From: an uncultured Bdellovibrionales bacterium
GTDB lineage: Bacteria > Patescibacteriota > Minisyncoccia > Moranbacterales > UBA1568
Assembly (NCBI GenBank): GCA_964594215.1
Contig: CAZQLN010000005.1
Coordinates: forward strand, 2,475 to 66,474
DNA: 64,000 bases
Direction of reading: 5' to 3'
A program made the position numbers and the translations under genes. The notes beneath the pieces were generated by a model. The model did no database searches. It saw only the letters and a list, made by a program, of their open reading frames with translations, and was not told the origin of the DNA. Below are positions 7,207 to 36,682 of the stretch, in pieces; the stretch's first letter is position 1; every line of letters begins with the position of its first letter.

Positions 7207-7207
7207 T

Positions 7208-12546: not shown

Positions 12547-12583
12547 TTTAACATGTTTTGAAGAAAAGTTTGGATCAAGATTA

Positions 12584-13822: not shown

Positions 13823-13833
13823 ATACACCTCTT

Positions 13834-17154: not shown

Positions 17155-17156
17155 AT

Positions 17157-17190
17157 AAAAACAGTCCGCCAACTAGCGGACTGTTTTTTC
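17157..17190. terminator. bidirectional intrinsic terminator between the RND permease (+) and cyclophilin (-)
   Basis: AAAAACAGTCCGCcaactaGCGGACTGTTTTTTC. Confidence 0.8.
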
Positions 17191-17202
17191 ATCTCTCTTG
17201 TC

Positions 17203-17970: not shown

Positions 17971-18024
17971 AGCTCTACATCAAATATAGTATATTTGCTA
18001 CCAAGTATAGCAAACTGGCTTTGT

Positions 18025-21869: not shown

Positions 21870-21903
21870 AACAAACACCTCGGACTTCCGAGGTGTTTTT
21901 TTA
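21870..21903. terminator. bidirectional intrinsic terminator
   Basis: CACCTCGGA-ct-TCCGAGGTG hairpin flanked by an A-run upstream and a T-run downstream. It serves the + unit and the converging minus-strand GH gene. Confidence 0.7.
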
Positions 21904-21910: not shown

Positions 21911-23197
21911 CTATCTATCCTTCCAAATGCTCTGGAGAAAATGCTCCCATCCGCCACTTTCCTTTGGTACCAAGACAATGTCTAACTCACGCTGATCTTT
22001 GGAGATATCGGTTATTTCTTCGATTTCATATCCCTTCATACTAAATGTTACTCTTGGCGGTGCTGTTGGAGTAAATACCTTAAAAAATCTACCGTCCTTA
22101 CTAGTTCTTACTGATTCCATATCCGTACCAAAATCAACCAGAACATTCTCCAAAGGCATCCCCTGCTCATCAGTCACCGTGCCATACATAACTTCTGGAT
22201 GGTAATACTTGGTAATAGTTTCTACTGCCTGACGAGGTTCTCCCCCACTATTCCATATCTCCGTAGAACCACCTGTGCCCACCCAATAATTAAGCCCCTC
22301 AATCGAGGAGTTTTTCGCTAACAAGCTCAGCAGCTTCTCTATCCAGTCAGCTTGCTCTTTCTGGTTCATATGACCATGAATATCCGGAATAGGTGCTCCA
22401 AACTCACCTAACACGATCTTTCCACCGCTCTGCTCTGCGAGTAGGTTGATATCCTTCACGAGCTGTTCTGGTGTCTTCACATAATGATCTATTGTTACTA
22501 TTCCGCCCAAAGCCTTTGTAGTAGCCTTATCCATAATAAGTTTCGCCACATCTCCGTTCATAGAAAATAGATCTGTCCGTACATTCTTATGTATTTCTCT
22601 AAAGGAAGCTTGCATACCCTCATACTCTGCAATCAAAAACTGTCTGTGTCCAGAAACATCTCCTGTCCGGCGCGGATCTCCCGGTCCACCATTTTCACAT
22701 TCAGGACAAGCAGAAAAAGCGTCTCCGTCCTGGAAAAGCTCCGGATGTTTCATGATGAATTGTCTGGTCTTTTCAATATGTTCCTCCCTGGTAATAGCTG
22801 GATACTCAAACCAACCCTCCCAGCCTGACCAATTTCCCCGAAACCACACCTTGAGGTTATGTTTCCTAGCGGCCTCTACCCACCGCTTCATGATAGGAAG
22901 AAATTCTTCATCATATGGAGTGGCAATGGCTACATGTGTGGCTCCAGTAGCAGCTATTGCTCCTACTTGTTTTTCAATCACTTGATCAAAACGAGTATCA
23001 TTAAGTTTCTCTCGTGAGGGATCGCGAGAGTACTTCATGGTATCAATCGATTCAAAAGAAAAAGAATTGCGTATTGGCGGAGCAAAATAAGTGTGCTTTT
23101 GTGGTTGAATAGCCGCCTGGTTACTAAAAATCCAAGAAATACCTCCAACCAAAAGTAGCATCGCAAGAAATCCCAAAAAAAAGAGTTTGATTTTCAT
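21911..23197 (-). CDS. secreted clan GH-A TIM-barrel glycoside hydrolase (GH5/GH113-like) with C-terminal beta-sandwich domain
   Basis: Signal peptide. LGEFG motif typical of the GH5 nucleophile region. Additional C-terminal domain (VMYGTVTDEQGMPLENVLVDF) is carboxypeptidase-regulatory-like. Confidence 0.45.
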   Translation of the reverse strand: MKIKLFFLGFLAMLLLVGGISWIFSNQAAIQPQKHTYFAPPIRNSFSFESIDTMKYSRDPSREKLNDTRFDQVIEKQVGAIAATGATHVAIATPYDEEFLPIMKRWVEAARKHNLKVWFRGNWSGWEGWFEYPAITREEHIEKTRQFIMKHPELFQDGDAFSACPECENGGPGDPRRTGDVSGHRQFLIAEYEGMQASFREIHKNVRTDLFSMNGDVAKLIMDKATTKALGGIVTIDHYVKTPEQLVKDINLLAEQSGGKIVLGEFGAPIPDIHGHMNQKEQADWIEKLLSLLAKNSSIEGLNYWVGTGGSTEIWNSGGEPRQAVETITKYYHPEVMYGTVTDEQGMPLENVLVDFGTDMESVRTSKDGRFFKVFTPTAPPRVTFSMKGYEIEEITDISKDQRELDIVLVPKESGGWEHFLQSIWKDR

Positions 23198-23216: not shown

Positions 23217-24797
23217 TTACCATTGTTTCGGTAGAATCGGTTCTGTAATTAAGTCTGGCAAATACTCTGCCTTAAGTTCATAGATATCAGCGAATGGATA
23301 ATGATCTACAAGTTGATAATACTGAAATCCCGGATTATCTACCATAGCTCTCCAGGTAGAATCATCATTTGAATAGCTTCGAACCACAATCCATCTTGCC
23401 CAACGATCAGGGTTAGCTAAAGCGGCATCATAGTAGGCGCCAGCTCCTTCATGAATAAACTTTTTCATTGGTAAACCAGATGAGAAGATAACTGAGTCAT
23501 GAGAGGCTGCTGAGATAAGAACGAATCCGGGTTTATCTTTAGTATTTTCTCGTAACCAGCCAGATACCTCAGTTACATTTTTCTGACTCGATCCAACGCG
23601 TGCGTCATCGATAGTCACCGCATCCGCTGATGAAAACTGAAAAAAAGTCACAAAAGCCAACAATCCAATAATAGTTACGCCCAAAGGTCTTTTGACACGC
23701 CCCACGAGATATCCAACAAAAATAGCAATGGACGGCAACATCATGATGCCGTAACGTACATTAAACCAAGTATCTCCTGAAATACCCTGAATATAGAGCA
23801 CTGAGTGACCTAAGTAGAGTGCCAATATATTGAATAGGAAAGGCGCTATAAGAGCGCTACTGGCTATGCGAGCAGGAACGGAAATTTTTTTATCTAACCA
23901 AAGGAAAATGGCTGCCACAAAGCCAAGGAACATGGTGAAAGCTCCTGTATTATAGGCCATTGCATACATATAGACTTTAAGTGAGAAGAGCCAGTTCCCC
24001 TTACTTGGGAGCACTCCAGCTGCATTAAGTTGATCTTGTTGAGCATGGGCTGAGTATGGACCAAAGGCAAAGTATAGTGGATCCTTGAAAATAAGAAGGT
24101 TCCATAGAAGCCATAACACTACTCCTAGTCCAGCCAAAGTACAGAAAAAAATAAATATCCCTTCTGCTCGATGATACCCATATTTCTTAAAAGTATAGAG
24201 AGTAATAATGCTGGCCGCAAAGAAAAGCATAAACCAAGCATCATAGCGTACCAGCGTGGCTAGCATGATAAAAAAGGCTGAATAAATAAGATACAGAGAG
24301 TTTTCAGTCTTAAACCACCTCAAAAGATAATAAGCACCGACTGTCATAGTGCCAAGAAGTGTTAATTCTGTCATAGCTGTTGACTGTAAGTACAGCGTAT
24401 TTATATTCGCTACGAATATTGCTACTCCCACGAAACGACCGAGAAGCCCTATCCCTAATTCTTTCAGAAAAAGAGCAATAACAACTCCCGTCGCCACAAA
24501 GCTGATCATAGACCACAAGGCTCCAGCAAGGCCTGAATGCCACATAAAGTCATTCCAGATAGTCACTCCCATCAGTAAATGAGTGAGTGGCAGCCATACA
24601 GAACCGAGCTGCGCTGCTCCAGGGTTAAGATTTTCCACTACACGACGACCGATATCAAGATGTGATCGAGCATCATTATAGGCTAAACCTAAACCGTTTT
24701 GATAAAAATAGATGAAGGTGCCTATAGAAATTAAAGACAATGAAAAACTTATGATCCAAGAACTGTATTCTTCTATTGTTAGAATGATATTTTTCAT
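23217..24797 (-). CDS. GT-C superfamily membrane glycosyltransferase (PMT/ArnT-like, family 39/83-like)
   Basis: 526 aa, at least 10 transmembrane helices. First extracytoplasmic loop carries the acidic motif (YNDARSHLD). Large C-terminal soluble domain. Part of the glycan cluster. Confidence 0.55.
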   Translation of the reverse strand: MKNIILTIEEYSSWIISFSLSLISIGTFIYFYQNGLGLAYNDARSHLDIGRRVVENLNPGAAQLGSVWLPLTHLLMGVTIWNDFMWHSGLAGALWSMISFVATGVVIALFLKELGIGLLGRFVGVAIFVANINTLYLQSTAMTELTLLGTMTVGAYYLLRWFKTENSLYLIYSAFFIMLATLVRYDAWFMLFFAASIITLYTFKKYGYHRAEGIFIFFCTLAGLGVVLWLLWNLLIFKDPLYFAFGPYSAHAQQDQLNAAGVLPSKGNWLFSLKVYMYAMAYNTGAFTMFLGFVAAIFLWLDKKISVPARIASSALIAPFLFNILALYLGHSVLYIQGISGDTWFNVRYGIMMLPSIAIFVGYLVGRVKRPLGVTIIGLLAFVTFFQFSSADAVTIDDARVGSSQKNVTEVSGWLRENTKDKPGFVLISAASHDSVIFSSGLPMKKFIHEGAGAYYDAALANPDRWARWIVVRSYSNDDSTWRAMVDNPGFQYYQLVDHYPFADIYELKAEYLPDLITEPILPKQW

Positions 24798-24801: not shown

Positions 24802-26382
24802 CTAGACCTTATTATTGAAAAAGATCTCTCTAGCAGAAACCAGCCAAATTCCTAATACGAGAATCATGATAAGGGAGAATAAAACCTTATGGTATTCTTG
24901 AGCTGTCATATAATTCTTAGCCCAATTCTGGTACACAAAAGCCTTGGATCCCACACTTTCGTATTTTCCTTGAAGAAACTCCCAGTTACGCAAAAACGTA
25001 TACTTTTCTTCATGACCTGATTGCTCTTCAAGCGCTAATACCTGAACCTTTGGAGGATTGAGACTAGTGGTGACCGCTCCTAAACTATTAACCCAAGCAG
25101 AATAAGCAAAAAGTGGAAGGAGGGCGATGATTAACCACTTTCTCCACTCCCAGTAAGTAAGAGCCATGGCTATAGCTATTCCTAATAAAGCATAGCTTGG
25201 TATAAGATAACGCGACCCAAAAGCCCATCCGCCCCAAGGATCTCCCCACATAGAGTACAAGAGTGTATTTGTCCCAATAATCGCCACAAAAAGAGATGCA
25301 ACCCAAACGCTACGACGATACAGGACAAAAAGACCCAGAATACCAAAAAGGATTATTGGTGTGAAATAAAGAATCCCACGATCAGGACTAATAAAATGAA
25401 TAAAGAAGCCATTATATAGATTGCGTGTCTTAAAAAATCCTGTCGCTGTCTTTTGAGGCTTATCTTGGGATTGGGTACCTATTTGATCATACTTACTATC
25501 TACTATCGCCTCACCATGCTCACCTATATCATCCACTGCTTGTAAGGTTCCGGGTAATTGAAAAGGACTTCCATTGGCCATATTGTTATACCAACCCAAG
25601 AAAAGTATTGGCGGTATAACAACAGCTATCGTCAAAACAGTAAACACTAAACTTTTTAGAACTCGCTTCTGTTCATAACCTTCTATCAGTCTTTCTTTTA
25701 GGCTGAAGAGGGAAAAGATACCTACTGGAAGCATCAAGAAGATATTCGGATTATCTACAACTATCGAGATAGCACAAGAAAACCATACGATAGCCAAAGC
25801 AAAAAAACTTCTTTGGAAGCGCATCATCGCCCAAACAGAGATTAGTAAAAAGAACACTGTCATATGATGCTGATAAAGTTCTGATGCGTAGACAAAAGCC
25901 GGAGTTGCAAAAGAAAATGTCAAAGCACCTAGCAATGCCGCGCTTCTAGATGACTTAAGCTGCATTGAAATGGTATAGATGAGAACCAGATTTAAGATCG
26001 CAAAAAAGGCACTCGTAGCAAAAGCTCCTACTATAGAAACTCCAAACTCCTTCCCTATTAAATAGCCTGGTATAGCTAAAAATGATGGTCCTGGAGAAAA
26101 AAGTGAGACATACTTACCAGAAGAATTAACAGCTAAATCAGGAATCGCCAATCGAGCCACATCGAGGGAGAACTGCAATGAATGATCCTCAACAAAAGAG
26201 TAAAGGAGAGCTATCCTACCTCGCTCTGGTGATAATTCAAGTGGCCCATCCCAAGTCCAGTGCTTAGACTGAAGCGTTTTACTATCTGGATTTCCGTTTA
26301 TCCCTCGGATTGCCAAAGAGAAGATCACCACTATCAAAAATATCGATAGAACAATTAGTATTTTTTCTAATAATGACTTCAT
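24802..26382 (-). CDS. GT-C superfamily membrane glycosyltransferase (second tandem copy)
   Basis: 526 aa polytopic membrane protein with the same overall architecture as the adjacent gene. Confidence 0.55.
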   Translation of the reverse strand: MKSLLEKILIVLSIFLIVVIFSLAIRGINGNPDSKTLQSKHWTWDGPLELSPERGRIALLYSFVEDHSLQFSLDVARLAIPDLAVNSSGKYVSLFSPGPSFLAIPGYLIGKEFGVSIVGAFATSAFFAILNLVLIYTISMQLKSSRSAALLGALTFSFATPAFVYASELYQHHMTVFFLLISVWAMMRFQRSFFALAIVWFSCAISIVVDNPNIFLMLPVGIFSLFSLKERLIEGYEQKRVLKSLVFTVLTIAVVIPPILFLGWYNNMANGSPFQLPGTLQAVDDIGEHGEAIVDSKYDQIGTQSQDKPQKTATGFFKTRNLYNGFFIHFISPDRGILYFTPIILFGILGLFVLYRRSVWVASLFVAIIGTNTLLYSMWGDPWGGWAFGSRYLIPSYALLGIAIAMALTYWEWRKWLIIALLPLFAYSAWVNSLGAVTTSLNPPKVQVLALEEQSGHEEKYTFLRNWEFLQGKYESVGSKAFVYQNWAKNYMTAQEYHKVLFSLIMILVLGIWLVSAREIFFNNKV

Positions 26383-26393: not shown

Positions 26394-27416
26394 TTAATCT
26401 TTTAAGGATGCGCTCGATAATGATTTAACAGTATCACTAAAAGTAGCCATGTACCTCTTAATATTTGAATATGAACCTGTTCCCCTTTTTGATAAAGTCA
26501 GTTCCTGAAGAATATAGTAAGAGGAGAATGCCAAAAACTTTTTTTTCTTCTTATACGAATTAAGTTCTCTATCTAAAAGAAGTTTTAAGAAGTCATTCCC
26601 AATATTTTCTTGATAAGAAACGGCTGCCATAGCCAACTCCATACCATCCTCTGCAAAAACGCAAATTTCTGGATCAATAATAACAACTTCATTTCCTGTG
26701 AAAATAGCATTCTGCAAATGAAAATCTCTATGTGTAAGTATATAGTGAGGGAGAAAAAGTGCTCTATAAGGAAAATTTCCAAAAAAAGTTAACATGGTGA
26801 CGGTAAGACTTTTCCAAAGATTAGTCTCTTTTAAGAGAGCTAGCGAAAAATAAACTGGGAGAGAGGCTATCATAAGCCAGTTAGACCTTGAAGCAATGCT
26901 CTCTTTGTTTTTCTTGGTAAGACTATTTTTTGCAATGGAGAGAAAAGTGAAACAGTTTTTTAGATGATCTAATCTTTCAGCTTCAGAAATTTTATCTAGT
27001 GTACTACCAGATACAAACTCCCTAATCAAATAGACATCTCCATCCTCCTCGTGGAAATCCACAAATTTACAAAAGCGTACCCCATGAGATGCGTTTCCTA
27101 CTACTCTATTCGAGAATAAATGGATTATATTAGCCTCGTTTTTCAGTTGTGCATAAAGTATATTTTTTCGTTTATATTGAAAACGCTTAATGACGACCCT
27201 TTCTGTAGATGCATCTTGATATATTGATACCGTCTTCAGGTAGTCCTTACCTTCCACTCGAGAAAGAATCTTAACAAAAGTATACCCCTGTATATCCGCC
27301 CCCTCATTGAAGTAATTTTCTCCTGAATTCGAAGAAAAGTAACCACCAAATAATGACCAGTATACCTGCCAAAACTTAAAACTATTTTTCCCAAGAGGAT
27401 TAAGAGTATTTCTCAT
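26394..27416 (-). CDS. kinase-fold phosphotransferase (APH/choline-kinase family)
   Basis: HRDFHLQNAIF (Brenner motif) and VVIIDPE (DxE) typical of aminoglycoside/choline/sugar kinase-like phosphotransferases. Confidence 0.5.
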   Translation of the reverse strand: MRNTLNPLGKNSFKFWQVYWSLFGGYFSSNSGENYFNEGADIQGYTFVKILSRVEGKDYLKTVSIYQDASTERVVIKRFQYKRKNILYAQLKNEANIIHLFSNRVVGNASHGVRFCKFVDFHEEDGDVYLIREFVSGSTLDKISEAERLDHLKNCFTFLSIAKNSLTKKNKESIASRSNWLMIASLPVYFSLALLKETNLWKSLTVTMLTFFGNFPYRALFLPHYILTHRDFHLQNAIFTGNEVVIIDPEICVFAEDGMELAMAAVSYQENIGNDFLKLLLDRELNSYKKKKKFLAFSSYYILQELTLSKRGTGSYSNIKRYMATFSDTVKSLSSASLKD

Positions 27417-28204
27417 ACTAATAGTTCTTTTACTGCTTTTCTGAAAAAAATATTAGCTGGCGAAGCAAGTCGTTGAAACTCACTAAAAACATGTGTCCTA
27501 TCCACCCCAATTCTTGGTATAGCAAGAGCCTTTGTAGATTGATCTACACGCCCATCATCCATGGAAAAGGCAAGCTGATAACCAGATCTTTCTACCATTT
27601 TTAGAACCTCTTGGTTATAACGTCCTCGAGGGTAGGCAAAATACTTGATAGCAAAACCAAGGTCTTTTTCGAGATCTTTACGCGAAAGAATGATTTCTGT
27701 GTACAATTGTTGGTTGGATAGATGCCAAAAATCACTATGAGTAGCGCTGTGACTTCCAATAGCCCAACCCTCTTTATGAAGATCCTGAATATCCTCCTTC
27801 ATGAGAAACTCTCTCCTTGTTCCTAATTCATCAATATTAGCTTTCTCTGGAGAAGAAAGAACAAAAAGTAGTGGTTTGATATTATGTGAGGCCAGATATT
27901 CTCTCACAGAAAGAATATCCTTATACCCATCATCAAAACAAATAATAAATGATGGCTTATCTATAAGCTTTTCCCCAGAAATATGTCTCGTCAGATCATC
28001 TACTGTGACTGCCTGACGGGTACTTAAAAGGTAGTCTACTTGTCGAATAAAACTCTGTTTATCTATACCAAATCTCCAATCATCTGCTGCAATACTGTGA
28101 TAGCAAAAAATAACCACTGGAAATGCCTCACTTCCAAAGACTCTGTCGAATACATATAGAGAACTATAGATACATCTTCGTATGAAAAGGGTGAGTGTGT
28201 TCAT
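27413..28204 (-). CDS. polysaccharide deacetylase (CE4, NodB homology domain)
   Basis: CE4 motifs: FDDGY (metal/Asp), GSHSATH (His motif), and AYPRGRYN. Confidence 0.8.
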   Translation of the reverse strand: MNTLTLFIRRCIYSSLYVFDRVFGSEAFPVVIFCYHSIAADDWRFGIDKQSFIRQVDYLLSTRQAVTVDDLTRHISGEKLIDKPSFIICFDDGYKDILSVREYLASHNIKPLLFVLSSPEKANIDELGTRREFLMKEDIQDLHKEGWAIGSHSATHSDFWHLSNQQLYTEIILSRKDLEKDLGFAIKYFAYPRGRYNQEVLKMVERSGYQLAFSMDDGRVDQSTKALAIPRIGVDRTHVFSEFQRLASPANIFFRKAVKELLV

Positions 28205-28210: not shown

Positions 28211-29134
28211 TTATCGTAGTTTTTTAGAGCTTGTGGCTATCTCCCAGGTTTCTGAGACCACTCCACCAAAAAATGACTGTACTCGCAGAAACATCACCAA
28301 ACAAAGGTACGTCGCCGTTGCTATGGGTTTCCATAATATGAGTGGAGTGGCTTTTAAAAAAGCTATGAAATAGACGGTATATGGAATCCTCATAGTTTGA
28401 TAGACTAGCCCTTCACCAAAAATGTCTCCAAAATTATCCCTGCCCTTGAAAAAGCGAGTGCTCTGACTCTTATGGTCATTGAAGCTGTTGGGCAGACGAT
28501 AGTATATTTCTGTATCTTGGATATAGTTATATTTATAGCCATGAAACACGCAGTAAAGATACGAGTAAGCATCCTCACCGACACTCTTCTTAAAAGTCAT
28601 TTCTTTATAGAGCTTTTTACTAAAGGCACGCGCTGAACCGTGGCAAGTATAAGCATTGTTACCATTGTTGTAGGTTTCAAAGAGTATGCTTTTAAGCTCT
28701 ACACTCGTAACCAAAATGCTCTCGAAAAAGTTCCTAGCTGGCAACGGCTTATGTTTCACAGATACTAGATCAGCCTCCTTATTCATAAGTGGCTTGATAA
28801 GTTTTTGAATAAAATCCTTATCCCTTATTTGAATATCAGCGTTCAAAAAAACCAGAGCCTCGCTTAAAGCCTTAGCCATTATCGTATTCTGCCCATGAGA
28901 AGCTCCCATTCTTTCTCGTCCAATAATCAACTCTATTCTTCCATCCAATACATCACGAACAACCCCCTCGGTAGTATCAGTACTACCATCCGAATACACA
29001 TAGATCTTTTCTAGTCTATATCCTTCTTCCTTTTGAGTGAGTAAATCATTCAGGAGATAGCCTATATTAGCTTCCTCGTTATACGCAGGAATACCTATAC
29101 TGACTGTAAATTTTGCTTGGTTACTATTTTGCAT
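28211..29134 (-). CDS. family 2 glycosyltransferase
   Basis: VSIGIPAYNEEANI ... YVYSDGSTDTT, a GT-A fold with DxD-type motifs. Confidence 0.8.
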   Translation of the reverse strand: MQNSNQAKFTVSIGIPAYNEEANIGYLLNDLLTQKEEGYRLEKIYVYSDGSTDTTEGVVRDVLDGRIELIIGRERMGASHGQNTIMAKALSEALVFLNADIQIRDKDFIQKLIKPLMNKEADLVSVKHKPLPARNFFESILVTSVELKSILFETYNNGNNAYTCHGSARAFSKKLYKEMTFKKSVGEDAYSYLYCVFHGYKYNYIQDTEIYYRLPNSFNDHKSQSTRFFKGRDNFGDIFGEGLVYQTMRIPYTVYFIAFLKATPLILWKPIATATYLCLVMFLRVQSFFGGVVSETWEIATSSKKLR

Positions 29135-29139: not shown

Positions 29140-32100
29140 TTAGTATTCACTCTTAATAGCCTCCCAAAAAGCCATACTACTTTTCTCCCACGTGAAGTTT
29201 TCTGCCCACTCACGAGCATTATCCCCGAATCGCTTACGAAGATCATGATCCTTAATAACTGAGAGCATCGCCTCACTAAATCGAGCTACATCGCCATAGG
29301 GCACTAGATATCCAGCCTCTCCATCAAGCACTGAATCCCTGAGACCCGGAACATCTGATGCAATCACAGGTGTTCCACACATATTTGCCTCAATAACCAC
29401 TATGCCCCACCCCTCCATGAATGAAGGATTCACCAACATCCAAGAACTTTGTAGAAGTCTAACTTTTTCTTCATGAGATACCGCCCCCAGAAACTGCACC
29501 TGTTTATCATTAAAGCCAAGCTCTGCCGCTAAGCGTTTGAGATACTTCTTGTCATCACCATCACCAGCAATCACTAATATAGCCTCTGGTCGTGAGGATA
29601 GAACCTTATGAAAAGCCTGGATAAGAATGTTCACTGATTTGTAAGCTTTCAATCGACCAAGATAAAGAATCGTTGGATGAGTTGTCTTCTCTACAAATTC
29701 TCGAGTAAACTGAGTGGCATTAATACCCGGATGCACTATAGATATTCCCGCTTGTCCAAGATTTATATCCAACATTTCTTGTTTGCTCGATTCGGAGACA
29801 GTAATAAATTGTACATTTCTATACACTAATGGCATCAAGCCTTTTTCAAGAGTACTCGCCAACCAAGCAAGCGGTTTGGGTAAAGAATGATAGAAAACCT
29901 CTTGATGCACATGATGCATAAGACAGAAAAGTGGCTTACGCACATAGAGAGGTGTGAAGAATGGTATCCCATTCTCACAATCTATAACCACATCATACCT
30001 ATCTCTAAAACGAAGCATGTAGTAGAGAAAAGCCCAGAGATAAACAAGATAAAATCCTCCTCTACGGACAATGTTCACTCCGTCAATCGTCTCGAATCTC
30101 TCTTGTGTACCATCATTGCCGGAAAATACAGTCACATGATGACCTTCGACTACCCATGTTTTAGCAATTTCGTGAACGTACACTTCAGCTCCTCCAGCAA
30201 AACGATGGGTGGTATCCCGCCAATTAAAGATAAGTATTCTCTTGCCAGTAGTCACCAGGGGTTGGGCTTTTAGTAAGCCATTTGTGAACACTCCCAAAAA
30301 ATCCCGTAAACCTCGCCCCAAAAATCCTATTCGTATACCAAAGAAATGCATTGCTGAAAAGATAACTAGGCCAGCCAAACTAGTACCAAAAATAATATCA
30401 ATGATGTCTCTGAATTCATCGTGATCAAACCATATGCTTGTAATCACAACCAAAGAAAGTCCTAGAGAAACAAACGAAAATGAATACTCTCTTTTTGCCA
30501 AATGGTAAGTTACGAGAACACTCGAAAGTGTGAACAGGGCGATACTAAGAGTATAGAGAGGTAACCAACCTACTATCTCTCTTGCCTTCTCTCCAAAAAG
30601 AATTGGGGCTGTAACAAAACCGAAAACACCTAGAATAAGGACCCCTAAAGTAACTAAAATAAGAACGCTAGAGAAAATGGTGGATAAAATCTTCTCAGAA
30701 CCCTGTTTCAAACCATCTTTGAAGCTCACTAGAGTTACCATGAAAACCATCGGCAAAGCTCCAAGAAAATAAATCATCTTACCCGCCAATGAAAGTAAGG
30801 CGTACTGACCAGACTGAGTTTCATTGAAAAAGTGCTTCACCAGAAGAACATCTACACTAAGGAATAGAATAGTCGAAAGACTTACCGCCATTGATGAAAA
30901 GAGAAATGCAAACGGAAAAGAGACTATCTCTTCTGTGTGAACCTTGTCTTGGCTTACTTCAGGAGATATCTTCTTATACATTAACCAGACAACTACACTC
31001 CCTACACAAGCGGCTGTCATCAAAGAGAGCGGGATAGACAAATATACCCATTCAGGATGACTCGAATAGACAAAAAGAATGGCTAACAACAGCTTAGTCA
31101 CAGCCTCTGCTAACATCACTACTGCTGCCCAAAAGAACCGAAGACTCCCCTTGAGAAAACCCTGAAAAGCATAGGAGAGAAAACCAAAGATGATCACTGG
31201 TGTAAAAAATAGCAGCACCGCCATATCTTGCACCTTGAAGAAAGACATCAGGAAGGGAGCTGTAACTATCCAAATGAATGAAACTAGCGAAACTGTATAA
31301 AGTGCATACCGTAAACCCCTTTTGAAGAAAGTCCACATTGCCTCTCTCCCCTTCTGAGCAAGAAGATACGATACTCGATGATTTGTTGTTGAAGCGAAAC
31401 TGTTTACAAAAATAGTTGTTATAAACCAAAGTGTATTTACAAAAATCACCAAATTTAGCTCAGAAAATGAAAGAACTCTACCAAGAAAAGCATTGAAAAT
31501 AAAATTCAAAAAATTACCGACAACCATAGCTCCGACCAAAAACCCTTTATTAGAAAAAATAAAGTGGAGATGCTGCTTTGGTATAAAGTTTGGAGCATAG
31601 CTTATAAGAGCCTGCCTAGCGTGCACCCAACGCTGTTTCGAACTCCAGTATTTCTCCTTATCTTTAGTTTTCTCCTTGACAATATGTAGCCCGTGATTCG
31701 TTTTCTCCCAATAATGTGGCTTTACAAAAAGCTGGTATGCCGCAATAGCTGCTGCAATACTGACCATCAGCCAATACAATGGAACCACGAAAACATACTT
31801 GATAAGCCAAAAATGTCCTCTCCTCGCACAACCAATCATGTAGTAATAAAGGTACAAAAAGTTCCCAAAGATTAGCGAAACAACTGCCATGTAAAATATG
31901 ACCTGGGGGAAAAGAGCATGAATAGCATCCCCTATAAAAGCATAAAAAACAAAGTAGGAAATCGTTGTGATCCAAAGCAATGGATTAATAACCATAAAGG
32001 CAATCTTACCTCCAACCACAAGCTGAAAGACTAATGCATGCAAACCATTTTCACGGGCAAACAGAAATGGATTGCGCATGTGTACTAGATACGTTTGCAT

Positions 32101-33843
32101 ATATCCCTTGATCCAGCGAGAGCGCTGCCGTAACCAATTTTTCCAATCACTATTCGCCTCCTCAAGTGTTACTGAATCAATCACAGCGGTTCGGTATCCT
32201 CTTTTAAAAAGACGTACTCCAAGATCACAGTCCTCTGTTACGTTAAACGGATCCCATCCCTGCAGTTCCAAGAGCTTCTTAGTCCGAAAATGATTACTTG
32301 TTCCACCGAGTGGAATGGAAGTGTTAATCGTCTGAAGACCTGTCAAAATAACATCGAACCATAATGAGTACTCTGCCGTAAAAAGACGAGTCAGCATGTT
32401 CTGATGAGGATTGAAATAATTTAGTTTAGCTTGGAGACACTGGACTTCTGGACCACTTTTTTGAAATGCCAGAAAGGCTTTTTTTAGTTGAAATGGATCT
32501 GGAATATCTTCAGCATCATAAATCACTGTATATTCACCTCGTGAGACCGATAAACCATAGTTACAAGCTTTTGGTTTAGTCTTAGGCATGGAATGAGGCA
32601 CTACTACAATACGCACATACGAAGGTAGTCCCATTTCTTGGGCAGCGATGACTGTTTCTTGATCATTTTCCTCTAAAAGCAAAAGGACATCGAGTTTAGC
32701 CTTAGGCCAATCGAGCTTCTCAATGGCGTCCATAAAATGAGGTAGCATATGAGCCTCCTTATAGAGTGGACAAAGGATTGAGTATAGTGGTAAATCTTTC
32801 TCATTCAAAGCTGCTAACTCTTCTTCTGTACTACATAACTCTGGTGGCGTTTTCAAACTTTGCAATACTAGTCCAAGATTGAAAAATACGTCTATAAAAT
32901 AGAGGGTTGTGATAAAAGCAAAAAAGGCTATCCCCGTGTGGAGTGGTGTTATGATAAGACCAAGAATAAACAGTCCCACTAGACTCAAGAGAAAAACTTT
33001 CTGCCATGGAATGAAGGTCTCAAGAGCAGAAATATCATGATGGAGAGTGGTGTGAGTAACAAAACGTGTCCGATTATGTGCAATACCTGCACCATGCATT
33101 GAATCTTTGGACTCTGGATGAATGAGTAGTGGTGGCCGACCCTGATATTTCAGTTTAAGAGCGCTCCAACCTATCTCAAAAATAGCTTTCAGCGGACTTA
33201 ATTTTGATGATCCAGCTAATCTCTCAGAAAAATTTATATCTACCGTACTAATCACATACCCGTAATTCCTCGCTGAGAGCAAGAACTCCATATCAAATGT
33301 CCAGGGTGTTGGATCGAGAATCACTTCACGTAGAATCTTCTTACGAAATACTTTAAGTCCAGATTGACTATCACAATCAAGATCGTGTAAGAGTCGAGCA
33401 AAAACGAAGCTGAATGACTTACTAAGGAGTGCCCGAATAAACTGAGTATCATGCGTTACCCTGTTAGCAACGACGATATCAGATCCCGCAAACAACTTCT
33501 CTACCATCTCTGGGATAGCTTCCGGTGGATACTGAAGATCTCCATCAATCATCACTATGGATTCATAAACTGCATATGAGAACCCCTCAATTAGTGATTG
33601 GGCTTTACCAGAGTGACCCTTCTTAGAAAAAAAGTGTACCTTGAAATAATCCTTATACTTGAGAGCTGCTTCCTGAATAACCTTTCGAGTATTATCAATG
33701 GAGTGATCATCTATAAAAATAACCTCTCCTTCGTAAGAGGCTTTTACAAAAATTTCCTGAACTCTTTCCAAAAGAGCCAGTATATTCCCCTCTTCATTGA
33801 GGACTGGGACAACAATAGATACTTGCTTCGCTCTCATAACCAA
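29140..33843 (-). CDS. 1567-aa multidomain polysaccharide synthase: GT2 (DPM1-like), transmembrane region, processive GT2 (QxxRW), MOP/Wzx-like polytopic domain, GT4
   Basis: N-terminal IVVPVLNEEGNI...IDDHSIDNT. Second GT2 with YDAEDIPDP and QRSRW motifs. About 450-aa region with at least 12 transmembrane helices resembling Wzx/polysaccharide-biosynthesis flippases. C-terminal GT4 with EGWGIVVIEANMCGTPVIASDVPGLRDSV (E-x7-E). Confidence 0.8.
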   Translation of the reverse strand: MVMRAKQVSIVVPVLNEEGNILALLERVQEIFVKASYEGEVIFIDDHSIDNTRKVIQEAALKYKDYFKVHFFSKKGHSGKAQSLIEGFSYAVYESIVMIDGDLQYPPEAIPEMVEKLFAGSDIVVANRVTHDTQFIRALLSKSFSFVFARLLHDLDCDSQSGLKVFRKKILREVILDPTPWTFDMEFLLSARNYGYVISTVDINFSERLAGSSKLSPLKAIFEIGWSALKLKYQGRPPLLIHPESKDSMHGAGIAHNRTRFVTHTTLHHDISALETFIPWQKVFLLSLVGLFILGLIITPLHTGIAFFAFITTLYFIDVFFNLGLVLQSLKTPPELCSTEEELAALNEKDLPLYSILCPLYKEAHMLPHFMDAIEKLDWPKAKLDVLLLLEENDQETVIAAQEMGLPSYVRIVVVPHSMPKTKPKACNYGLSVSRGEYTVIYDAEDIPDPFQLKKAFLAFQKSGPEVQCLQAKLNYFNPHQNMLTRLFTAEYSLWFDVILTGLQTINTSIPLGGTSNHFRTKKLLELQGWDPFNVTEDCDLGVRLFKRGYRTAVIDSVTLEEANSDWKNWLRQRSRWIKGYMQTYLVHMRNPFLFARENGLHALVFQLVVGGKIAFMVINPLLWITTISYFVFYAFIGDAIHALFPQVIFYMAVVSLIFGNFLYLYYYMIGCARRGHFWLIKYVFVVPLYWLMVSIAAAIAAYQLFVKPHYWEKTNHGLHIVKEKTKDKEKYWSSKQRWVHARQALISYAPNFIPKQHLHFIFSNKGFLVGAMVVGNFLNFIFNAFLGRVLSFSELNLVIFVNTLWFITTIFVNSFASTTNHRVSYLLAQKGREAMWTFFKRGLRYALYTVSLVSFIWIVTAPFLMSFFKVQDMAVLLFFTPVIIFGFLSYAFQGFLKGSLRFFWAAVVMLAEAVTKLLLAILFVYSSHPEWVYLSIPLSLMTAACVGSVVVWLMYKKISPEVSQDKVHTEEIVSFPFAFLFSSMAVSLSTILFLSVDVLLVKHFFNETQSGQYALLSLAGKMIYFLGALPMVFMVTLVSFKDGLKQGSEKILSTIFSSVLILVTLGVLILGVFGFVTAPILFGEKAREIVGWLPLYTLSIALFTLSSVLVTYHLAKREYSFSFVSLGLSLVVITSIWFDHDEFRDIIDIIFGTSLAGLVIFSAMHFFGIRIGFLGRGLRDFLGVFTNGLLKAQPLVTTGKRILIFNWRDTTHRFAGGAEVYVHEIAKTWVVEGHHVTVFSGNDGTQERFETIDGVNIVRRGGFYLVYLWAFLYYMLRFRDRYDVVIDCENGIPFFTPLYVRKPLFCLMHHVHQEVFYHSLPKPLAWLASTLEKGLMPLVYRNVQFITVSESSKQEMLDINLGQAGISIVHPGINATQFTREFVEKTTHPTILYLGRLKAYKSVNILIQAFHKVLSSRPEAILVIAGDGDDKKYLKRLAAELGFNDKQVQFLGAVSHEEKVRLLQSSWMLVNPSFMEGWGIVVIEANMCGTPVIASDVPGLRDSVLDGEAGYLVPYGDVARFSEAMLSVIKDHDLRKRFGDNAREWAENFTWEKSSMAFWEAIKSEY

Positions 33844-33985
33844 GTGGCTTGTATTTTACCTAACTAAATTAAATCCCTTAGATAAGGGAAAATCCAATAA
33901 AAAACCGTCTATTTTATTCGAAAAGATGACTGCTTAGTATACCGTTAATACGTTTCTTTGTCAATCTTGATAGTGACTTCTTATA

Positions 33986-36155: not shown

Positions 36156-36682
36156 TTGGTATCTACTTGATCTTCTTTCGCTAGCTTAAGAGAGTTCTGA
36201 TAAAGACCTTTGATTTCAAAAATGAGGAAAAGGATGAGGCCAATTTTTAGGAGTGTCAGTGGAAACCAAACCTGCTCCCGGCAAGTATCAAACACTAGCC
36301 ACTCAAGGAGGAAGAAGGCTGTAATCAAAGCTTCAAAACGCCAATAACGGATACTTCTGTACAGACGATACTGCTCTCTTAGGTTAAAAACCATGAGCAA
36401 AACGTAGATAAAAATAAGCAATACCCAAACATCTTTAGGGAGCGCTTTGCAGAGAGATATCTCATGCACCACATCACCAGTAGCGACTACCATAACCGCT
36501 CTCCCATCGATAGAGCCAGATTTTGGTTGCTCAGAAAGGGTGGGCACTGAAGTTACTTCTCGGGTAGGATCTGCTATTGGTGAAGCATTTAAAAGTGGTA
36601 CTAACTCAAGAAAAAGCAGAGCTCCCAAGGGAATCAGAAAGGTAGCTATTGTTTTGCGTGAAAAAGTGGTTGTTATCATCAT
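36152..36682 (-). CDS. hypothetical membrane protein (last gene of the sortase operon)
   Basis: Signal/transmembrane N-terminus plus 3 C-terminal transmembrane helices. No recognisable domain. Confidence 0.4.
   Translation of the reverse strand: MMITTTFSRKTIATFLIPLGALLFLELVPLLNASPIADPTREVTSVPTLSEQPKSGSIDGRAVMVVATGDVVHEISLCKALPKDVWVLLIFIYVLLMVFNLREQYRLYRSIRYWRFEALITAFFLLEWLVFDTCREQVWFPLTLLKIGLILFLIFEIKGLYQNSLKLAKEDQVDTN

What the first reader, a model, noticed from the sequence alone, without database searches (positions are those of the whole stretch)
29140..33843. All-in-one 1567-aa polysaccharide synthase: GT2, processive QxxRW GT2, Wzx-like polytopic domain and GT4 in a single polypeptide
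Functions that are normally four separate genes appear fused: an initiating or DPM1-like GT2, a cellulose/hyaluronan-synthase-like processive GT2 with YDAEDIPDP and QRSRW motifs, a flippase-like domain with at least 12 transmembrane helices, and a retaining GT4 with the E-x7-E motif. The gene heads a 12-kb cluster with a further GT2, a CE4 deacetylase, an APH-like kinase, two GT-C transferases and a GH5-like hydrolase. The cluster is divergently arranged from the PBP1A gene. Together this looks like a compact, possibly N-deacetylated and phosphorylated surface-glycan or protein-glycosylation pathway.
Basis: partly seen in the sequence, partly recalled or inferred. Interest (0 to 1): 0.6.

Follow-up and report, generated by a model that had tools for sequence, protein, structure and literature searches.

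The report
Conserved four-domain envelope-glycan enzyme of Patescibacteria
This 1565-residue protein really does join two different GT2 sugar transferases, a lipid-flippase-type membrane domain and a GT4 transferase. The fusion is conserved across many ultra-small (CPR/Patescibacteria) bacteria and heads a seven-gene operon that probably builds an uncharacterised cell-surface sugar polymer.

Summary
One uninterrupted ORF (29140-33837, minus strand; 1565 aa from ATG) carries four domains:
- A: a GtrB/DPM1/ArnC-type GT2 with a two-helix membrane hairpin.
- B: a BcsA/PgaC/NfrB-type synthase GT2 with intact DxD, TED and QRSRW motifs.
- C: a 12-helix MOP-fold domain (AF2 pLDDT 91; all top 50 PDB fold matches are MATE, MurJ or WzxE).
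- D: a GT4 with E-x7-E.

The fusion is not an artefact. At least 116 full-length fused homologues (50-97% identity) come from independent assemblies, and all catalytic motifs are at least 95% conserved. Relatives also carry natural splits (AB|CD, A|BCD, ABD+C, CD alone), so this is evolutionary module shuffling.

The gene heads a seven-gene operon. Its two 526-aa proteins with no Pfam match are GT-C transferases: one by fold, one by weak PMT_2 hits.

B plus the second GT-C is the conserved core. It extends to Chloroflexota, where the two are fused, and B alone extends to Actinomycetota and Bacillota, where it carries c-di-GMP-binding MshEN domains. D co-occurs with the first GT-C.

Best reading: B is a polymer synthase, coupled to lipid-carrier-dependent extracytoplasmic glycosylation. 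There A makes the donor, C flips it and the GT-Cs transfer it. The product and acceptor are unknown. I found no published description.

The parts
29140..33837 (-). Four-domain protein A-B-C-D.
   Evidence: The identical protein is on an independent Logan assembly. At least 116 full-length fused homologues.
32833..33837 (-). Domain A (aa 1-335): GtrB/DPM1/ArnC-type GT2 (polyprenyl-phosphate sugar synthase type). It has DDxSxD (aa 43-48), DxD (aa 98-100) and a C-terminal two-helix membrane hairpin (aa ~279-323, window 32869-33003).
   Evidence: Pfam GT2 at 7-171. Best NCBIfam hits are PgfS, ArnC and AglJ, all below the curated cut-offs. Best PDB sequence hits are Pyrococcus DPMS 5mlz (1.7e-22), ArnC and GtrB 5ekp. 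Hydropathy. Motif conservation.
31687..32832 (-). Domain B (aa 336-717): membrane-embedded processive-type GT2 synthase. Motifs are TKPKACNYG, YDAEDIP (440-446), TEDCDLG (534-540) and RQRSRW (570-575). It has 2-4 hydrophobic helices (598-703) and the terminal invariant motif W-E-K-T-x-H-G-L (710-717).
   Evidence: CelA 4.5e-19, PgaC 1.5e-16; BcsA 9e-13; best-conserved part, 0.77-0.87 mean column identity; distant match to E. coli NfrB with the same motif order.
31552..31686 (-). Basic linker (aa 718-762) between B and C. It is poorly conserved, variable in length and rich in Lys/Arg, and is predicted to be cytoplasmic.
   Evidence: 24% gaps. (mean K+R 14.7 over residues 704-762). (one amphipathic helix).
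30283..31551 (-). Domain C (aa 763-1185): 12-helix MOP-superfamily (MATE/MurJ/Wzx) fold, N-in/C-in.
   Evidence: AF2 pLDDT 91.1, pTM 0.88. In Foldseek against the PDB all top 50 hits are MOP transporters: VcmN 4.8e-7, MurJ, and WzxE 9g95 with TM-score 0.75 on the target. MatE 25.0 bits against a gathering score of 24.9. Positive-inside pattern.
29143..30240 (-). Domain D (aa 1200-1565): GT4 (GT-B fold, retaining type) with E1475-x7-E1483.
   Evidence: Glycos_transf_1 4.9e-45 and Glyco_transf_4 4.3e-15. Best NCBIfam hits are MshA, Agl16 and BshA, all below cut-offs; PelF scores 44 bits against a cut-off of 100. PDB hits include MshA, BshA, PimA and PimB. Invariant residues.
28211..29134 (-). 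GT2b: 307-aa GT2 with one C-terminal hydrophobic helix. It co-occurs with D and is fused to C-D in L041.
27413..28204 (-). CE4 de-N-acetylase, 263 aa, with no signal peptide or membrane helix. The DD and HSxxH motifs are present. It is replaced by a PIG-L-family deacetylase in L004, and is fused to GT2b and APH in L005 and to APH and M526a in L038.
26394..27416 (-). APH/protein-kinase-like phosphotransferase, 340 aa, with an HRDxxxxN motif.
   Evidence: Pfam APH 4.3e-7, 30.4 bits against a gathering score of 23.2. Sequence. APH or Pkinase at the same position in L002, L004 and L005.
24802..26382 (-). M526a: polytopic 526-aa protein, a probable GT-C (PMT_2-like) glycosyltransferase. It co-occurs with domain D.
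   Evidence: No Pfam hit in the window protein. PMT_2 in 5 of 32 orthologues, best 5.3e-6. NCBIfam LA_3751/2 2.5e-9. D~M526a 34/37 against 2/21.
23217..24797 (-). M526b: polytopic 526-aa GT-C-fold glycosyltransferase with the invariant first-loop motif YNDARSHLDIGRR (aa 40-52) and a C-terminal extracytoplasmic domain. It is the most constant partner of domain B.
   Evidence: AF2 pLDDT 81, pTM 0.81. In Foldseek the top 38 hits are all GT-C: STT3, ALG12, ArnT, PglB, DPY19, AftD, Pmt4, Emb. Found in 62 of 85 loci; fused to B in L065 and L066. Fused to an A-like GT2 in L076.
21911..23197 (-). Last gene: 428-aa secreted or anchored protein with an N-terminal hydrophobic helix, a conserved ~300-aa domain (weak GH clan-A 'Glyco_hydro_cc' signal) and a CarboxypepD_reg domain.
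   Evidence: Conserved at this position in 30 loci.
33936..33964 (-). Promoter-like site TTGACA-17-TATACT (11 of 12 matches), ~100 nt upstream of the start codon.
   Evidence: a consensus match only.
21873..21898 (.). Bidirectional intrinsic-terminator-like hairpin (11-bp stem, 6 G-C pairs) 13 nt after the last gene. It marks the end of the seven-gene operon.

Best explanation
The protein is a conserved hub enzyme of a cell-envelope glycoconjugate pathway in Patescibacteria. It places three cytoplasm-facing glycosyltransferase domains and one lipid-flippase-type domain in the membrane as a single polypeptide.

Proposed mechanism:
1. Domain B acts like a synthase-dependent polymerase of the BcsA/PgaC/NfrB type. 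It polymerises a sugar from a nucleotide sugar and threads the chain through its own membrane helices.
2. Domain A acts like GtrB, ArnC or DPM1. It loads a sugar onto polyprenyl phosphate at the inner face.
3. The lipid-linked sugar is brought to the outer face, by domain C where C is present.
4. The GT-C enzyme M526b uses that donor outside the membrane to glycosylate the B polymer or its acceptor.
5. Domain D (GT4), the neighbouring GT2b, a cytoplasmic de-N-acetylase (CE4, or PIG-L in some relatives) and an APH-like kinase form a second sub-module. They build and modify another lipid-linked intermediate, probably containing HexNAc converted to HexN. C flips it and the second GT-C, M526a, transfers it.
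6. The last gene, a secreted hydrolase-like protein, trims the product.

Shown here: domain identities, intact active sites, the MOP and GT-C folds, conservation of the fusion, operon structure, and the co-occurrence and fusion network.

Inferred: every substrate, the direction of flow, which intermediate C flips, and the nature of the final product and acceptor.
For: Domain identities and active sites:
- Catalytic motifs of A, B and D are at least 95% conserved over 121 fused sequences, so all three are under selection (confirmed).
- C has a MOP fold and an N-in/C-in charge pattern.

Topology places A, B and D in the cytoplasm:
- There is a two-helix hairpin between A and B.
- The linker after B is basic.
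- B's C-terminus is fused in different lineages to a MOP domain, to a GT4 (ABD forms) or to a GT-C. Each of these requires a cytoplasmic junction.

B as a polymer synthase:
- It carries the D, DxD, TED and QxxRW motifs.
- Homologues at 51-57% identity in Chloroflexota, Actinomycetota and Bacillota carry 1-5 N-terminal MshEN c-di-GMP receptor domains. E. coli NfrB, a c-di-GMP-activated EPS synthase, has the same kind of domain (PMC8669469).
- B aligns distantly with NfrB through the final W-[DE]-K-T-x-H motif.

A to GT-C link:
- In Dormibacterota locus L076 the gene after B encodes an A-like GT2 (E 1e-16 to A) fused to an M526b-like GT-C and a GH5 domain.
- M526b has the GT-C fold.
- M526b follows B in 47 of 58 loci with enough flank, including loci that hold only AB, and is fused to B in L065 and L066.

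Precedent for the combination GT-A polyprenyl-P-sugar synthase + flippase + GT-C, including a Wzx-type flippase (GacI/GacK/GacL): PMC8035078 and bioRxiv 10.1101/180810.

Second module:
- D~M526a 34/37 against 2/21, D~GT2b 28/37 against 2/21, C~D 30/32 against 7/26.
- Fusions link the parts: C-D-GT2b (L041), GT2b-CE4-APH (L005), CE4-APH-M526a (L038).
- C-D is the commonest architecture holding this MOP subfamily.
- CE4 is swapped for PIG-L in L004, and the CE4 lacks an export signal.

Operon: 4-19 nt gaps or overlaps, one promoter-like site and one terminator.
Against: - No biochemical or genetic data exist for any member. None of the domains reaches a curated equivalog cut-off, so no substrate can be named.
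- AB-only loci have M526b but no C. C is therefore not obligatory for the A to M526b route, and another flippase, or B itself, must serve there.
- MshEN-B loci outside CPR mostly lack an A-like gene in the flank examined. The B-M526b link could therefore mean something other than decoration, for example transfer or anchoring of the polymer.
- The co-occurrence statistics are not corrected for phylogeny. They depend on BLAST thresholds and on 10-kb flanks.
- The number of membrane passes after B's catalytic domain (2 or 4) is not resolved by hydropathy or charge.
- The hydrolase assignment of the last gene is weak, and it shows no detectable homology to the GH5 of L076.
Confidence: 0.5

Rival explanations
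1. Lipoglycan or glycolipid-anchor pathway (PIM/LM/LAM- or GPI-like logic). D (GT4, like PimA or PIG-A) glycosylates a membrane glycerolipid with HexNAc. The cytoplasmic deacetylase (CE4 or PIG-L) converts it to HexN-lipid. GT2b and the kinase elaborate it and C flips the glycolipid. The two GT-Cs then extend it outside from polyprenyl-P-sugar made by A. B supplies or extends a polymer on the same anchor.
For: - D's PDB hits include PimA, PimB and MshA, and its NCBIfam list includes weak hits to GlcNAc-phosphatidylglycerol synthase and monoglucosyl-diacylglycerol synthase.
- PIG-L replaces CE4 in L004, and the deacetylase is cytoplasmic.
- D is strongly linked to M526a.
- A's best solved relative is a dolichyl-P-mannose synthase.
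- GPI mannosyltransferase I appears among the M526b fold hits, at low rank.
Against: - GT4 hits are generic, and none reaches a family cut-off.
- No lipid-specific feature was tested.
- It does not by itself explain why B and M526b are the universal core, or why B homologues are c-di-GMP regulated.
- It overlaps with the best explanation and differs only in the acceptor of D.
Confidence: 0.2
2. Protein glycosylation pathway of the euryarchaeal Agl type. A starts an oligosaccharide on polyprenyl monophosphate. GT2b and D extend it, the deacetylase and kinase modify it, and C flips it (as the flippase AglR is thought to do). A GT-C acts as an oligosaccharyltransferase onto surface proteins such as the nearby sortase-dependent adhesin.
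For: - A hits AglJ (8.7e-21) and D hits Agl16 (8.7e-30).
- The best fold matches of M526b are STT3 and PglB oligosaccharyltransferases.
- In this window a 1989-aa SpaA-type surface protein and a sortase lie 3 kb away.
- Knowledge of the Haloferax Agl pathway is my own and was not checked in a paper here.
Against: - The adhesin and sortase neighbourhood is not conserved in L001, L002, L004 or L005.
- Fold similarity to STT3 is at the GT-C superfamily level (TM-score 0.57). ALG12 and ArnT score as well or better on TM-score.
- M526b lacks the large STT3-type C-terminal domain; only ~130 aa follow its last membrane helix.
- It gives no role to B, the best-conserved domain.
Confidence: 0.1
3. Two independent polymer synthases in one protein. 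B makes one polymer. C-D works like PelG-PelF (a MOP-type exporter plus a GT4 polymerase) and makes a second, partly de-N-acetylated HexNAc polymer.
For: - C-D is the commonest stand-alone architecture for this MOP subfamily.
- A deacetylase is conserved in the operon.
- PelF appears among D's NCBIfam hits.
Against: - PelF scores 44 bits against a cut-off of 100 and covers only the C-terminal half.
- No PelG Pfam hit even at E <= 10.
- No PelD or PelE equivalents in the operon.
- The deacetylase lacks an export signal, whereas Pel is deacetylated outside the cytoplasm (the Pel point is my own knowledge).
- The tight D-M526a (GT-C) association argues that D's product is lipid-linked.
Confidence: 0.1
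4. One reading: a single linear 'all-in-one' Wzx-type pathway (initiation, polymerisation, flipping and side-chain addition of one repeat-unit polymer) collapsed into one polypeptide.
For: All four domain types are present and conserved together.
Against: - No phosphoglycosyl transferase, Wzy or chain-length regulator in the operon.
- A synthase-type GT2 with its own channel does not need a Wzx.
- The modules occur separately and recombine in relatives.
- Two GT-Cs are conserved partners, which a cytoplasm-to-Wzx route does not explain.
Confidence: 0.07
5. Artefact: the long ORF arises from an assembly chimera or from lost stop codons or frameshifts between separate genes.
For: Some orthologous loci are split at the domain boundaries (L012, L017, L018, L041, L044, L050).
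Against: - The identical protein is present in an independent assembly.
- At least 116 full-length fused clusters at 50-97% identity come from NCBI, JGI, ENA and Logan.
- At least 14 GTDB species genomes carry ABCD in one ORF, including Woesebacteria, Dojkabacteria and Saccharibacteria.
- Active sites are conserved.
- Composition across the gene is uniform.
Confidence: 0.01

Closest known systems
Multi-component transmembrane glycosylation systems (GtrA/GtrB/GtrC; CsbB-GtcA-YfhO; GacI/J-GacK-GacL of the group A carbohydrate)
   Same: They combine a membrane-linked GT-A enzyme that makes polyprenyl-P-sugar, a flippase (Wzx-type in the Gac case) and a GT-C that transfers the sugar to a wall polymer outside the membrane (PMC8035078; 10.1101/180810). 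Here domain A, domain C and two GT-C proteins are present. In L076 an A-like GT2 is fused to an M526b-like GT-C.
   Different: Here the GT-A and the flippase are fused to each other and to two further transferases. The GT-Cs belong to families with no Pfam model. The acceptor polymer seems to come from a synthase-type GT2 in the same polypeptide, not from an ABC-transporter or Wzy route. A cytoplasmic deacetylase and a kinase are part of the set.
Synthase-dependent exopolysaccharide systems (BcsA cellulose synthase, PgaC/IcaA, E. coli NfrB)
   Same: Domain B has the D, DxD, TED and QxxRW signature and flanking membrane helices. Its non-CPR homologues carry MshEN c-di-GMP receptor domains, as NfrB does. 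A secreted hydrolase-like protein is encoded in the operon, as in most such systems.
   Different: Only 21-22% identity to NfrB, and scores far below the CelA and PgaC equivalog cut-offs. The CPR proteins have no c-di-GMP domain, no BcsB/PgaD/NfrA-type partner and no outer-membrane porin. The constant partner is instead a GT-C glycosyltransferase, which no characterised synthase system is known to me to require.
ArnC-ArnD-ArnE/F-ArnT and related lipid A aminosugar pathways (own knowledge, not checked in a paper here)
   Same: A GT2 loads an N-acylated aminosugar on undecaprenyl phosphate. A cytoplasmic CE4-type enzyme removes the acyl group from the lipid-linked sugar. A flippase moves it and a GT-C transfers it. 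A hits ArnC (1.9e-21 NCBIfam; PDB 9hwj 5.7e-17), ArnT 5f15 is the fifth-ranked fold match of M526b, and the operon CE4 lacks an export signal.
   Different: The flippase is MOP-type, not the small ArnE/F. There is no lipid A in this monoderm-type organism. Scores are far below the ArnC cut-off (76 against 529). The deacetylase co-varies with D and M526a rather than demonstrably with A.
Pel system (PelF GT4 + PelG MOP-like + PelA deacetylase)
   Same: It pairs a GT4 with a 12-helix MOP-type protein and includes a deacetylase.
   Different: The PelF model cut-off is not met, there is no PelG hit and no PelD or PelE. The deacetylase is cytoplasmic, and there is a strong link to a GT-C.

Membership tests
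GT2 polyprenyl-phosphate glycosyltransferases (GtrB/DPMS/ArnC type): domain A | GT-A catalytic domain with a DxD motif, homologous over its whole length to solved members | tested here: met
   Pfam GT2 at 7-171. DPMS 5mlz 1.7e-22 over residues 3-224, plus ArnC and GtrB. D98-x-D100 is invariant.
GT2 polyprenyl-phosphate glycosyltransferases (GtrB/DPMS/ArnC type): domain A | C-terminal membrane helices after the catalytic domain | tested here: met
   Two hydrophobic helices at ~279-299 and 303-323.
GT2 polyprenyl-phosphate glycosyltransferases (GtrB/DPMS/ArnC type): domain A | Reaches a curated equivalog score (PgfS, ArnC, AglJ), which would name the sugar | tested here: not met
   85.7 against 500, 76.4 against 529, 74.6 against 325 bits.
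GT2 polyprenyl-phosphate glycosyltransferases (GtrB/DPMS/ArnC type): domain A | Transfers a sugar to polyprenyl phosphate | not testable with these tools
   Needs an enzyme assay.
Processive membrane-embedded GT2 synthases (BcsA/PgaC/HAS/NfrB): domain B | D, DxD, TED and QxxRW motifs in order | tested here: met
   YDAED 440-444, TED 534-536 and QRSRW 571-575, all at least 95% conserved.
Processive membrane-embedded GT2 synthases (BcsA/PgaC/HAS/NfrB): domain B | Membrane helices on both sides of the catalytic domain that could form a channel | tested here: inconclusive
   Two helices lie before the domain and four hydrophobic segments lie after it (598-703). The number that cross the membrane (2 or 4) is not settled. 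No structure was predicted for this part.
Processive membrane-embedded GT2 synthases (BcsA/PgaC/HAS/NfrB): domain B | Reaches the curated score for cellulose or PNAG synthase | tested here: not met
   CelA 67.9 against 699; PgaC 60-101 against 422.
Processive membrane-embedded GT2 synthases (BcsA/PgaC/HAS/NfrB): domain B | c-di-GMP receptor domain (PilZ or MshEN) | tested here: not met
   None in the window protein. MshEN is present in the non-CPR homologues L069, L070, L075, L077 and L080.
MOP superfamily, Wzx subfamily: domain C | 12-helix MOP fold with both termini in the cytoplasm | tested here: met
   AF2 pLDDT 91. The top 50 Foldseek hits are all MOP. Charge distribution.
MOP superfamily, Wzx subfamily: domain C | Specific assignment to Wzx/PST rather than MATE or MurJ | tested here: inconclusive
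   MATE, MurJ and WzxE hits are interleaved. Pfam gives only MatE at the gathering threshold. Polysacc_synt (PF01943) is recorded for only a minority of the listed homologues, and not for the window's closest homologue P0001. No NCBIfam hit.
GT4 retaining glycosyltransferases: domain D | GT-B two-domain architecture with E-x7-E | tested here: met
   Glyco_transf_4 plus Glycos_transf_1. E1475 and E1483 are invariant.
Pel system | PelF and PelG family scores; PelD and PelE present | tested here: not met
   PelF 44 against 100 bits. No PelG hit. No other Pel components in the operon.
Wzx/Wzy-dependent pathway | Initiating phosphoglycosyl transferase, Wzy polymerase and chain-length regulator in the locus | tested here: not met
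   None among the seven operon genes or their immediate neighbours.
GT-C glycosyltransferases: M526b | GT-C fold with an acidic motif in the first extracytoplasmic loop | tested here: met
   The top 38 Foldseek hits are all GT-C. YNDARSH is invariant at 40-46.
GT-C glycosyltransferases: M526a | Sequence or fold match to a GT-C family | tested here: inconclusive
   PMT_2 in 5 of 32 orthologues. LA_3751/2 scores 36.5 bits against a cut-off of 200. The profile search against PDB sequences found nothing. No structure was predicted.

The most novel reading that the evidence does not exclude
The conserved core is a synthase-type GT2 (B) with an obligatory, previously unclassified GT-C partner (M526b). 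The pair occurs in Chloroflexota and Dormibacterota, and B alone extends to Actinomycetota and Bacillota, where it carries c-di-GMP-binding MshEN domains. This would define a new kind of synthase-dependent system for single-membrane bacteria. In it the nascent polymer is handed directly to a GT-C, which primes, branches or anchors it. In Patescibacteria the system has absorbed a second lipid-linked aminosugar module (C, D, GT2b, deacetylase, kinase, M526a). The result would be the major, so far unknown, secondary cell-wall polymer or lipoglycan of these bacteria.
Probability: 0.3. Interest if true: 0.8.

Novelty: new variant of a known kind. Interest (0 to 1): 0.6.

Why it matters
Patescibacteria (CPR) make up a large share of bacterial diversity, live attached to host cells and have tiny genomes, yet the sugar polymers of their envelope are essentially unknown.

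A 12-kb operon kept across Microgenomates, Parcubacteria, Dojkabacteria and Saccharibacteria in such reduced genomes is likely to make a major surface component. That component may matter for attachment to hosts, phage recognition or envelope integrity.

The fusion and split patterns give a ready-made interaction map: which transferase goes with which GT-C. They also identify two GT-C families that no Pfam model covers.

The link between a synthase-type GT2 and a GT-C, shared with Chloroflexota (including the cultivated Thermoflexus), and the c-di-GMP-regulated B homologues in cultivated Actinomycetota (Paraconexibacter), make the question testable in organisms that can be grown.

Tried and rejected
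- Assembly or frameshift artefact: rejected.
- Wzx/Wzy pathway: rejected because the operon has no initiating phosphoglycosyl transferase, Wzy or chain-length regulator.
- Pel membership: the PelF cut-off is not met and there is no PelG hit.
- Functional link to PBP1A, sortase or the adhesin: the adjacency is not conserved in four other genomes.
- BLAST of the two 526-aa proteins against each other: no significant similarity, so they are not recent paralogues.
- Profile search of M526a orthologues against PDB sequences: no hit.
- Profile search of the last gene against PDB sequences: only the CarboxypepD_reg part matched.
- hhalign of the last gene's family against the GH5 domain of L076: no homology, probability 0.6%. 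'GH5-like' stays a weak guess.
- B against E. coli NfrB: only distant, 21-22% identity, so B is not an NfrB orthologue.
- Hydropathy and charge analysis could not fix the number of membrane passes after B's catalytic domain.
- Six literature searches were run. Three looked for a description of this fusion or of a GT2-synthase/GT-C pair in Patescibacteria and found none. The other three looked for mechanistic precedents.
- An Rfam scan of the whole window found nothing.
- ORF lists for the non-CPR loci L069 and L066 were made. Only the ORFs directly downstream of B were then scanned; the wider neighbourhoods were not annotated.

Full report

The window holds one uninterrupted minus-strand ORF from 33843 to 29140. 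An ATG two codons later gives 1565 aa, which is the length used by independent gene calls. The identical 1565-aa protein sits on a contig of a separate public assembly, and the closest database cluster is also 1565 aa.

Pfam finds a GT2 domain at residues 7-171 and a second GT2 of the Glyco_tranf_2_3/Glyco_trans_2_3 type at 352-634. It finds a GT4 (Glyco_transf_4 plus Glycos_transf_1) at 1215-1544. A borderline MatE match lies at 770-919.

The quoted motifs are all there: YDAEDIPDP (440-448), QRSRW (571-575) and E1475-x7-E1483.

**2. What each domain is.**

- Domain A (1-335). Its best solved relatives are all polyprenyl-phosphate sugar synthases: Pyrococcus dolichyl-P-mannose synthase (1.7e-22), ArnC and GtrB. 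Its best NCBIfam models are PgfS, ArnC and AglJ, all far below the curated cut-offs. Two hydrophobic helices (about 279-323) follow the catalytic part, as in GtrB.
- Domain B (336-717). It matches cellulose and PNAG synthase models and BcsA structures, again below the cut-offs. It carries the full D, DxD, TED, QxxRW signature.
- Domain C (763-1185). I predicted its structure from a 66-sequence alignment (pLDDT 91, pTM 0.88). All 50 best PDB fold matches are MOP-superfamily transporters, with MATE, MurJ and the lipid III flippase WzxE interleaved. The fold is certain. The subfamily (Wzx or other) is not.
- Domain D (1200-1565). It is an ordinary GT4. Its best hits are MshA, BshA, PimA and PimB. 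PelF scores 44 bits against a cut-off of 100.

**3. Is the fusion genuine?**

Yes.
- A search of 5.8 billion proteins returned 120 listed homologues. About 116 of them are full length (1530-1730 aa), at 50-97% identity, from NCBI, JGI, ENA and Logan. Where a source names them, the names are mostly Patescibacteria groups such as Moranbacteria, Parcubacteria, Niyogibacteria and Falkowbacteria.
- In an alignment of 121 sequences the catalytic motifs of A, B and D are at least 95% conserved. B is the best-conserved part and C the least.
- A scan of one genome per GTDB species found at least 597 genomes with a relative of B.

I mapped the four domains onto stop-to-stop ORFs of the 80 loci kept from that scan.
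- ABCD lies in one ORF in at least 14 species genomes, including Woesebacteria, Dojkabacteria, Saccharibacteria and unclassified Patescibacteria.
- Other lineages have natural variants:
  - AB|CD as adjacent genes (L012, L041, L044, L050);
  - A|BCD (L017, L018);
  - BCD (L014, L016, L054);
  - ABD with a separate C (L034, L036);
  - AB alone (L039, L040, L042, L048, L064);
  - B|CD, B|C and BD.
- One locus (L024) has a frameshift inside C.

A search with C alone against 1.84 billion cluster representatives gave 125 clusters at E <= 1e-30. Among the best 150, stand-alone C (about 400-470 aa) and C-D (about 720-840 aa) are the commonest forms. The ABCD and BCD forms are fewer.

They reflect evolutionary reshuffling of modules that work together, not an error in this window.

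**4. The operon.**

Seven genes follow one another with gaps of 4-19 nt or a 4-nt overlap. A near-consensus promoter-like site lies at 33964-33936. An 11-bp-stem terminator at 21873-21898 lies just after the last gene.

After the big gene come the following.
- A 307-aa GT2 (GT2b).
- A CE4 deacetylase with intact DD and HSxxH motifs but no signal peptide or membrane helix.
- An APH-type kinase with HRDxxxxN.
- Two 526-aa polytopic proteins with no Pfam match (M526a and M526b).
- A 428-aa protein with an N-terminal hydrophobic helix and a CarboxypepD_reg domain.

M526b was modelled from 61 homologues (pLDDT 81, pTM 0.81). Its 38 best PDB matches are all GT-C glycosyltransferases: STT3, ALG12, ArnT, PglB, DPY19, AftD, Pmt4 and Emb. 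Its first external loop carries the invariant motif YNDARSHLDIGRR.

M526a has weaker support. PMT_2 matches 5 of 32 orthologues and an NCBIfam putative-glycosyltransferase model hits at 2.5e-9.

The last gene's catalytic domain matches the clan-A 'Glyco_hydro_cc' model in 6 of 19 orthologues. That is a weak indication of a glycoside hydrolase.

**5. Which parts belong together?**

The same downstream genes recur in Moraniibacteriota (a complete 1.1-Mb genome), Niyogibacteria and others. The variants are informative.
- PIG-L replaces CE4 in L004.
- GT2b-CE4-APH is one protein in L005.
- CE4-APH-M526a is one protein in L038.
- C-D-GT2b is one protein in L041.

M526b is the most constant partner of B. 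It was found in 62 of 85 loci. It lies directly downstream even in AB-only loci. In Chloroflexota (L065, L066) it is fused to the C-terminus of B.

In 58 loci with at least 9 kb of downstream sequence:
- D goes with M526a in 34 of 37 loci with D, against 2 of 21 without D;
- D goes with GT2b in 28 of 37, against 2 of 21;
- C goes with D in 30 of 32, against 7 of 26;
- M526b is present in 47 of 58.

These counts are not corrected for phylogeny.

In the Dormibacterota locus L076, the gene after B encodes three parts in one protein: an A-like GT2 (E 1e-16 to domain A), an M526b-like GT-C, and a GH5 cellulase-family domain.

Together this suggests two modules:
- (A)B + M526b, plus a hydrolase;
- D + GT2b + deacetylase + kinase + M526a, usually with C.

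**6. Relatives of B outside Patescibacteria.**

B alone occurs at 51-57% identity in Chloroflexota, Actinomycetota (including the cultivated Paraconexibacter), Bacillota, Brocadiia and Dormibacterota.

In five of the six such proteins I scanned, from Chloroflexota, Actinomycetota and Bacillota, B is preceded by one to five MshEN domains. MshEN is a high-affinity c-di-GMP receptor. In E. coli NfrB it activates a GT2 exopolysaccharide synthase (PMC8669469).

B aligns with NfrB only distantly (21-22% identity). The motif order is the same, down to a W-[DE]-K-T-x-H motif after the last hydrophobic helix.

This supports B as a polymer synthase. It suggests that Patescibacteria replaced the c-di-GMP sensor with domain A.

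**7. Topology.**

- The A-B junction is a tight two-helix hairpin, which puts both domains on the same side.
- In C, the loops predicted to be cytoplasmic are rich in Lys/Arg and the external loops are nearly free of them. The 704-762 linker averages 14.7 Lys/Arg. C is therefore N-in/C-in and D is cytoplasmic.
- B's C-terminus is joined in different lineages to a MOP domain, a GT4 or a GT-C. Each needs a cytoplasmic junction.
- Hydropathy and charge did not resolve whether two or four of the hydrophobic segments after B's catalytic domain cross the membrane.

**8. Most likely mechanism.**

B polymerises and exports a chain.

A makes a polyprenyl-P-sugar. This reaches the outer face and is used by the GT-C M526b on that chain or on its acceptor. 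This is the logic of the multi-component transmembrane glycosylation systems of Gram-positive bacteria. In one of them (GacI/GacK/GacL) a Wzx-type flippase is proposed (PMC8035078; 10.1101/180810).

D, GT2b, the cytoplasmic deacetylase and the kinase make a second lipid-linked intermediate, probably an aminosugar. C flips it and M526a transfers it. The CE4/PIG-L swap and the lack of an export signal recall ArnD-type processing of a lipid-linked sugar before flipping. That comparison rests on my own knowledge.

I put 0.5 on this scheme. I put about 0.9 on the broader statement that this is a conserved envelope-glycan biosynthesis hub.

Rivals differ mainly in the acceptor:
- a glycerolipid anchor (PIM/GPI-like), 0.2;
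- a protein (Agl-like), 0.1;
- a second Pel-like polymer, 0.1;

**9. Comparison with the known, and novelty.**

Every domain belongs to a well-known superfamily, but none reaches a curated family cut-off. Database names are only 'glycosyltransferase' or 'hypothetical protein'. Of six literature searches, the three aimed at a prior description of this fusion or pairing found none.

What is new:
- the conserved architecture;
- the two GT-C families with no Pfam model;
- the constant pairing of a synthase-type GT2 with a GT-C.

I class it as a new variant of a known kind and score interest at 0.6.

Noticed in passing
L076:11287-14604 (Dormibacterota, 'Candidatus Nephthysia bennettiae'): One 1106-aa ORF directly after a B-type synthase gene combines three parts: an A-like GT2, an M526b-like GT-C (loop motif AYGDAEAHLNISKRVV) and a GH5 cellulase-family domain.
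   Followed up: partly
L065:4238-7240 and L066:9779-12784 (Chloroflexota): About 1000-aa proteins in which the B-type synthase GT2 is fused at its C-terminus to an M526b-like GT-C. L066 has no MshEN domain.
   Followed up: partly
L069, L070, L075, L077, L080 (Actinomycetota, Chloroflexota, Bacillota): B-type synthases at 51-57% identity carry one to five N-terminal MshEN (c-di-GMP receptor) domains. The arrangement is the reverse of E. coli NfrB, where MshEN is C-terminal.
   Followed up: partly
L034 (Saccharimonadales), 1844-19286: Three paralogous copies lie within about 18 kb: two AB genes and one ABD gene, plus a separate C gene, a further weak B-like ORF and a GT-C. This is local amplification of the system.
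   Followed up: no
L024:338-5003 (Roizmanbacteria): The ABCD gene is broken by a frameshift inside domain C (overlapping ORFs of 1109 and 591 aa). It is either a sequencing error or a pseudogene.
   Followed up: no
window 36152-43288 (-): A 1989-aa surface protein with SpaA-type prealbumin-fold, SdrD_B and DUF11 repeats is followed by a sortase (36679-37356) and a 176-aa three-helix membrane protein. Together these look like a Gram-positive-style sortase-dependent adhesin or pilin set.
   Followed up: partly
window 12533-17154 (+): A 1106-aa AcrB/RND-family transporter (ACR_tran 3.7e-162) is preceded by a 429-aa ORF. The rest of this genome segment looks like a single-membrane, sortase-using bacterium.
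   Followed up: no
window 18025-19782 (-) and 20258-20800 (-): A DsbD-type membrane domain is fused to AhpC/redoxin and Thioredoxin_10 domains, with a separate thioredoxin next to it. This is an extracytoplasmic thiol-redox set just downstream of the glycan operon.
   Followed up: no
Record titles of L006, L007, L009, L015, L025-L029 and others: Many 'MAG TPA_asm' records that carry this Patescibacteria-type gene set are titled 'uncultured Gammaproteobacteria' or 'Bdellovibrionales'. The titles look unreliable and were not used for taxonomy.
   Followed up: no
window 1-64000: No Rfam family reaches its gathering score anywhere in the 64 kb, so no tRNA, rRNA or riboswitch was found.
   Followed up: no
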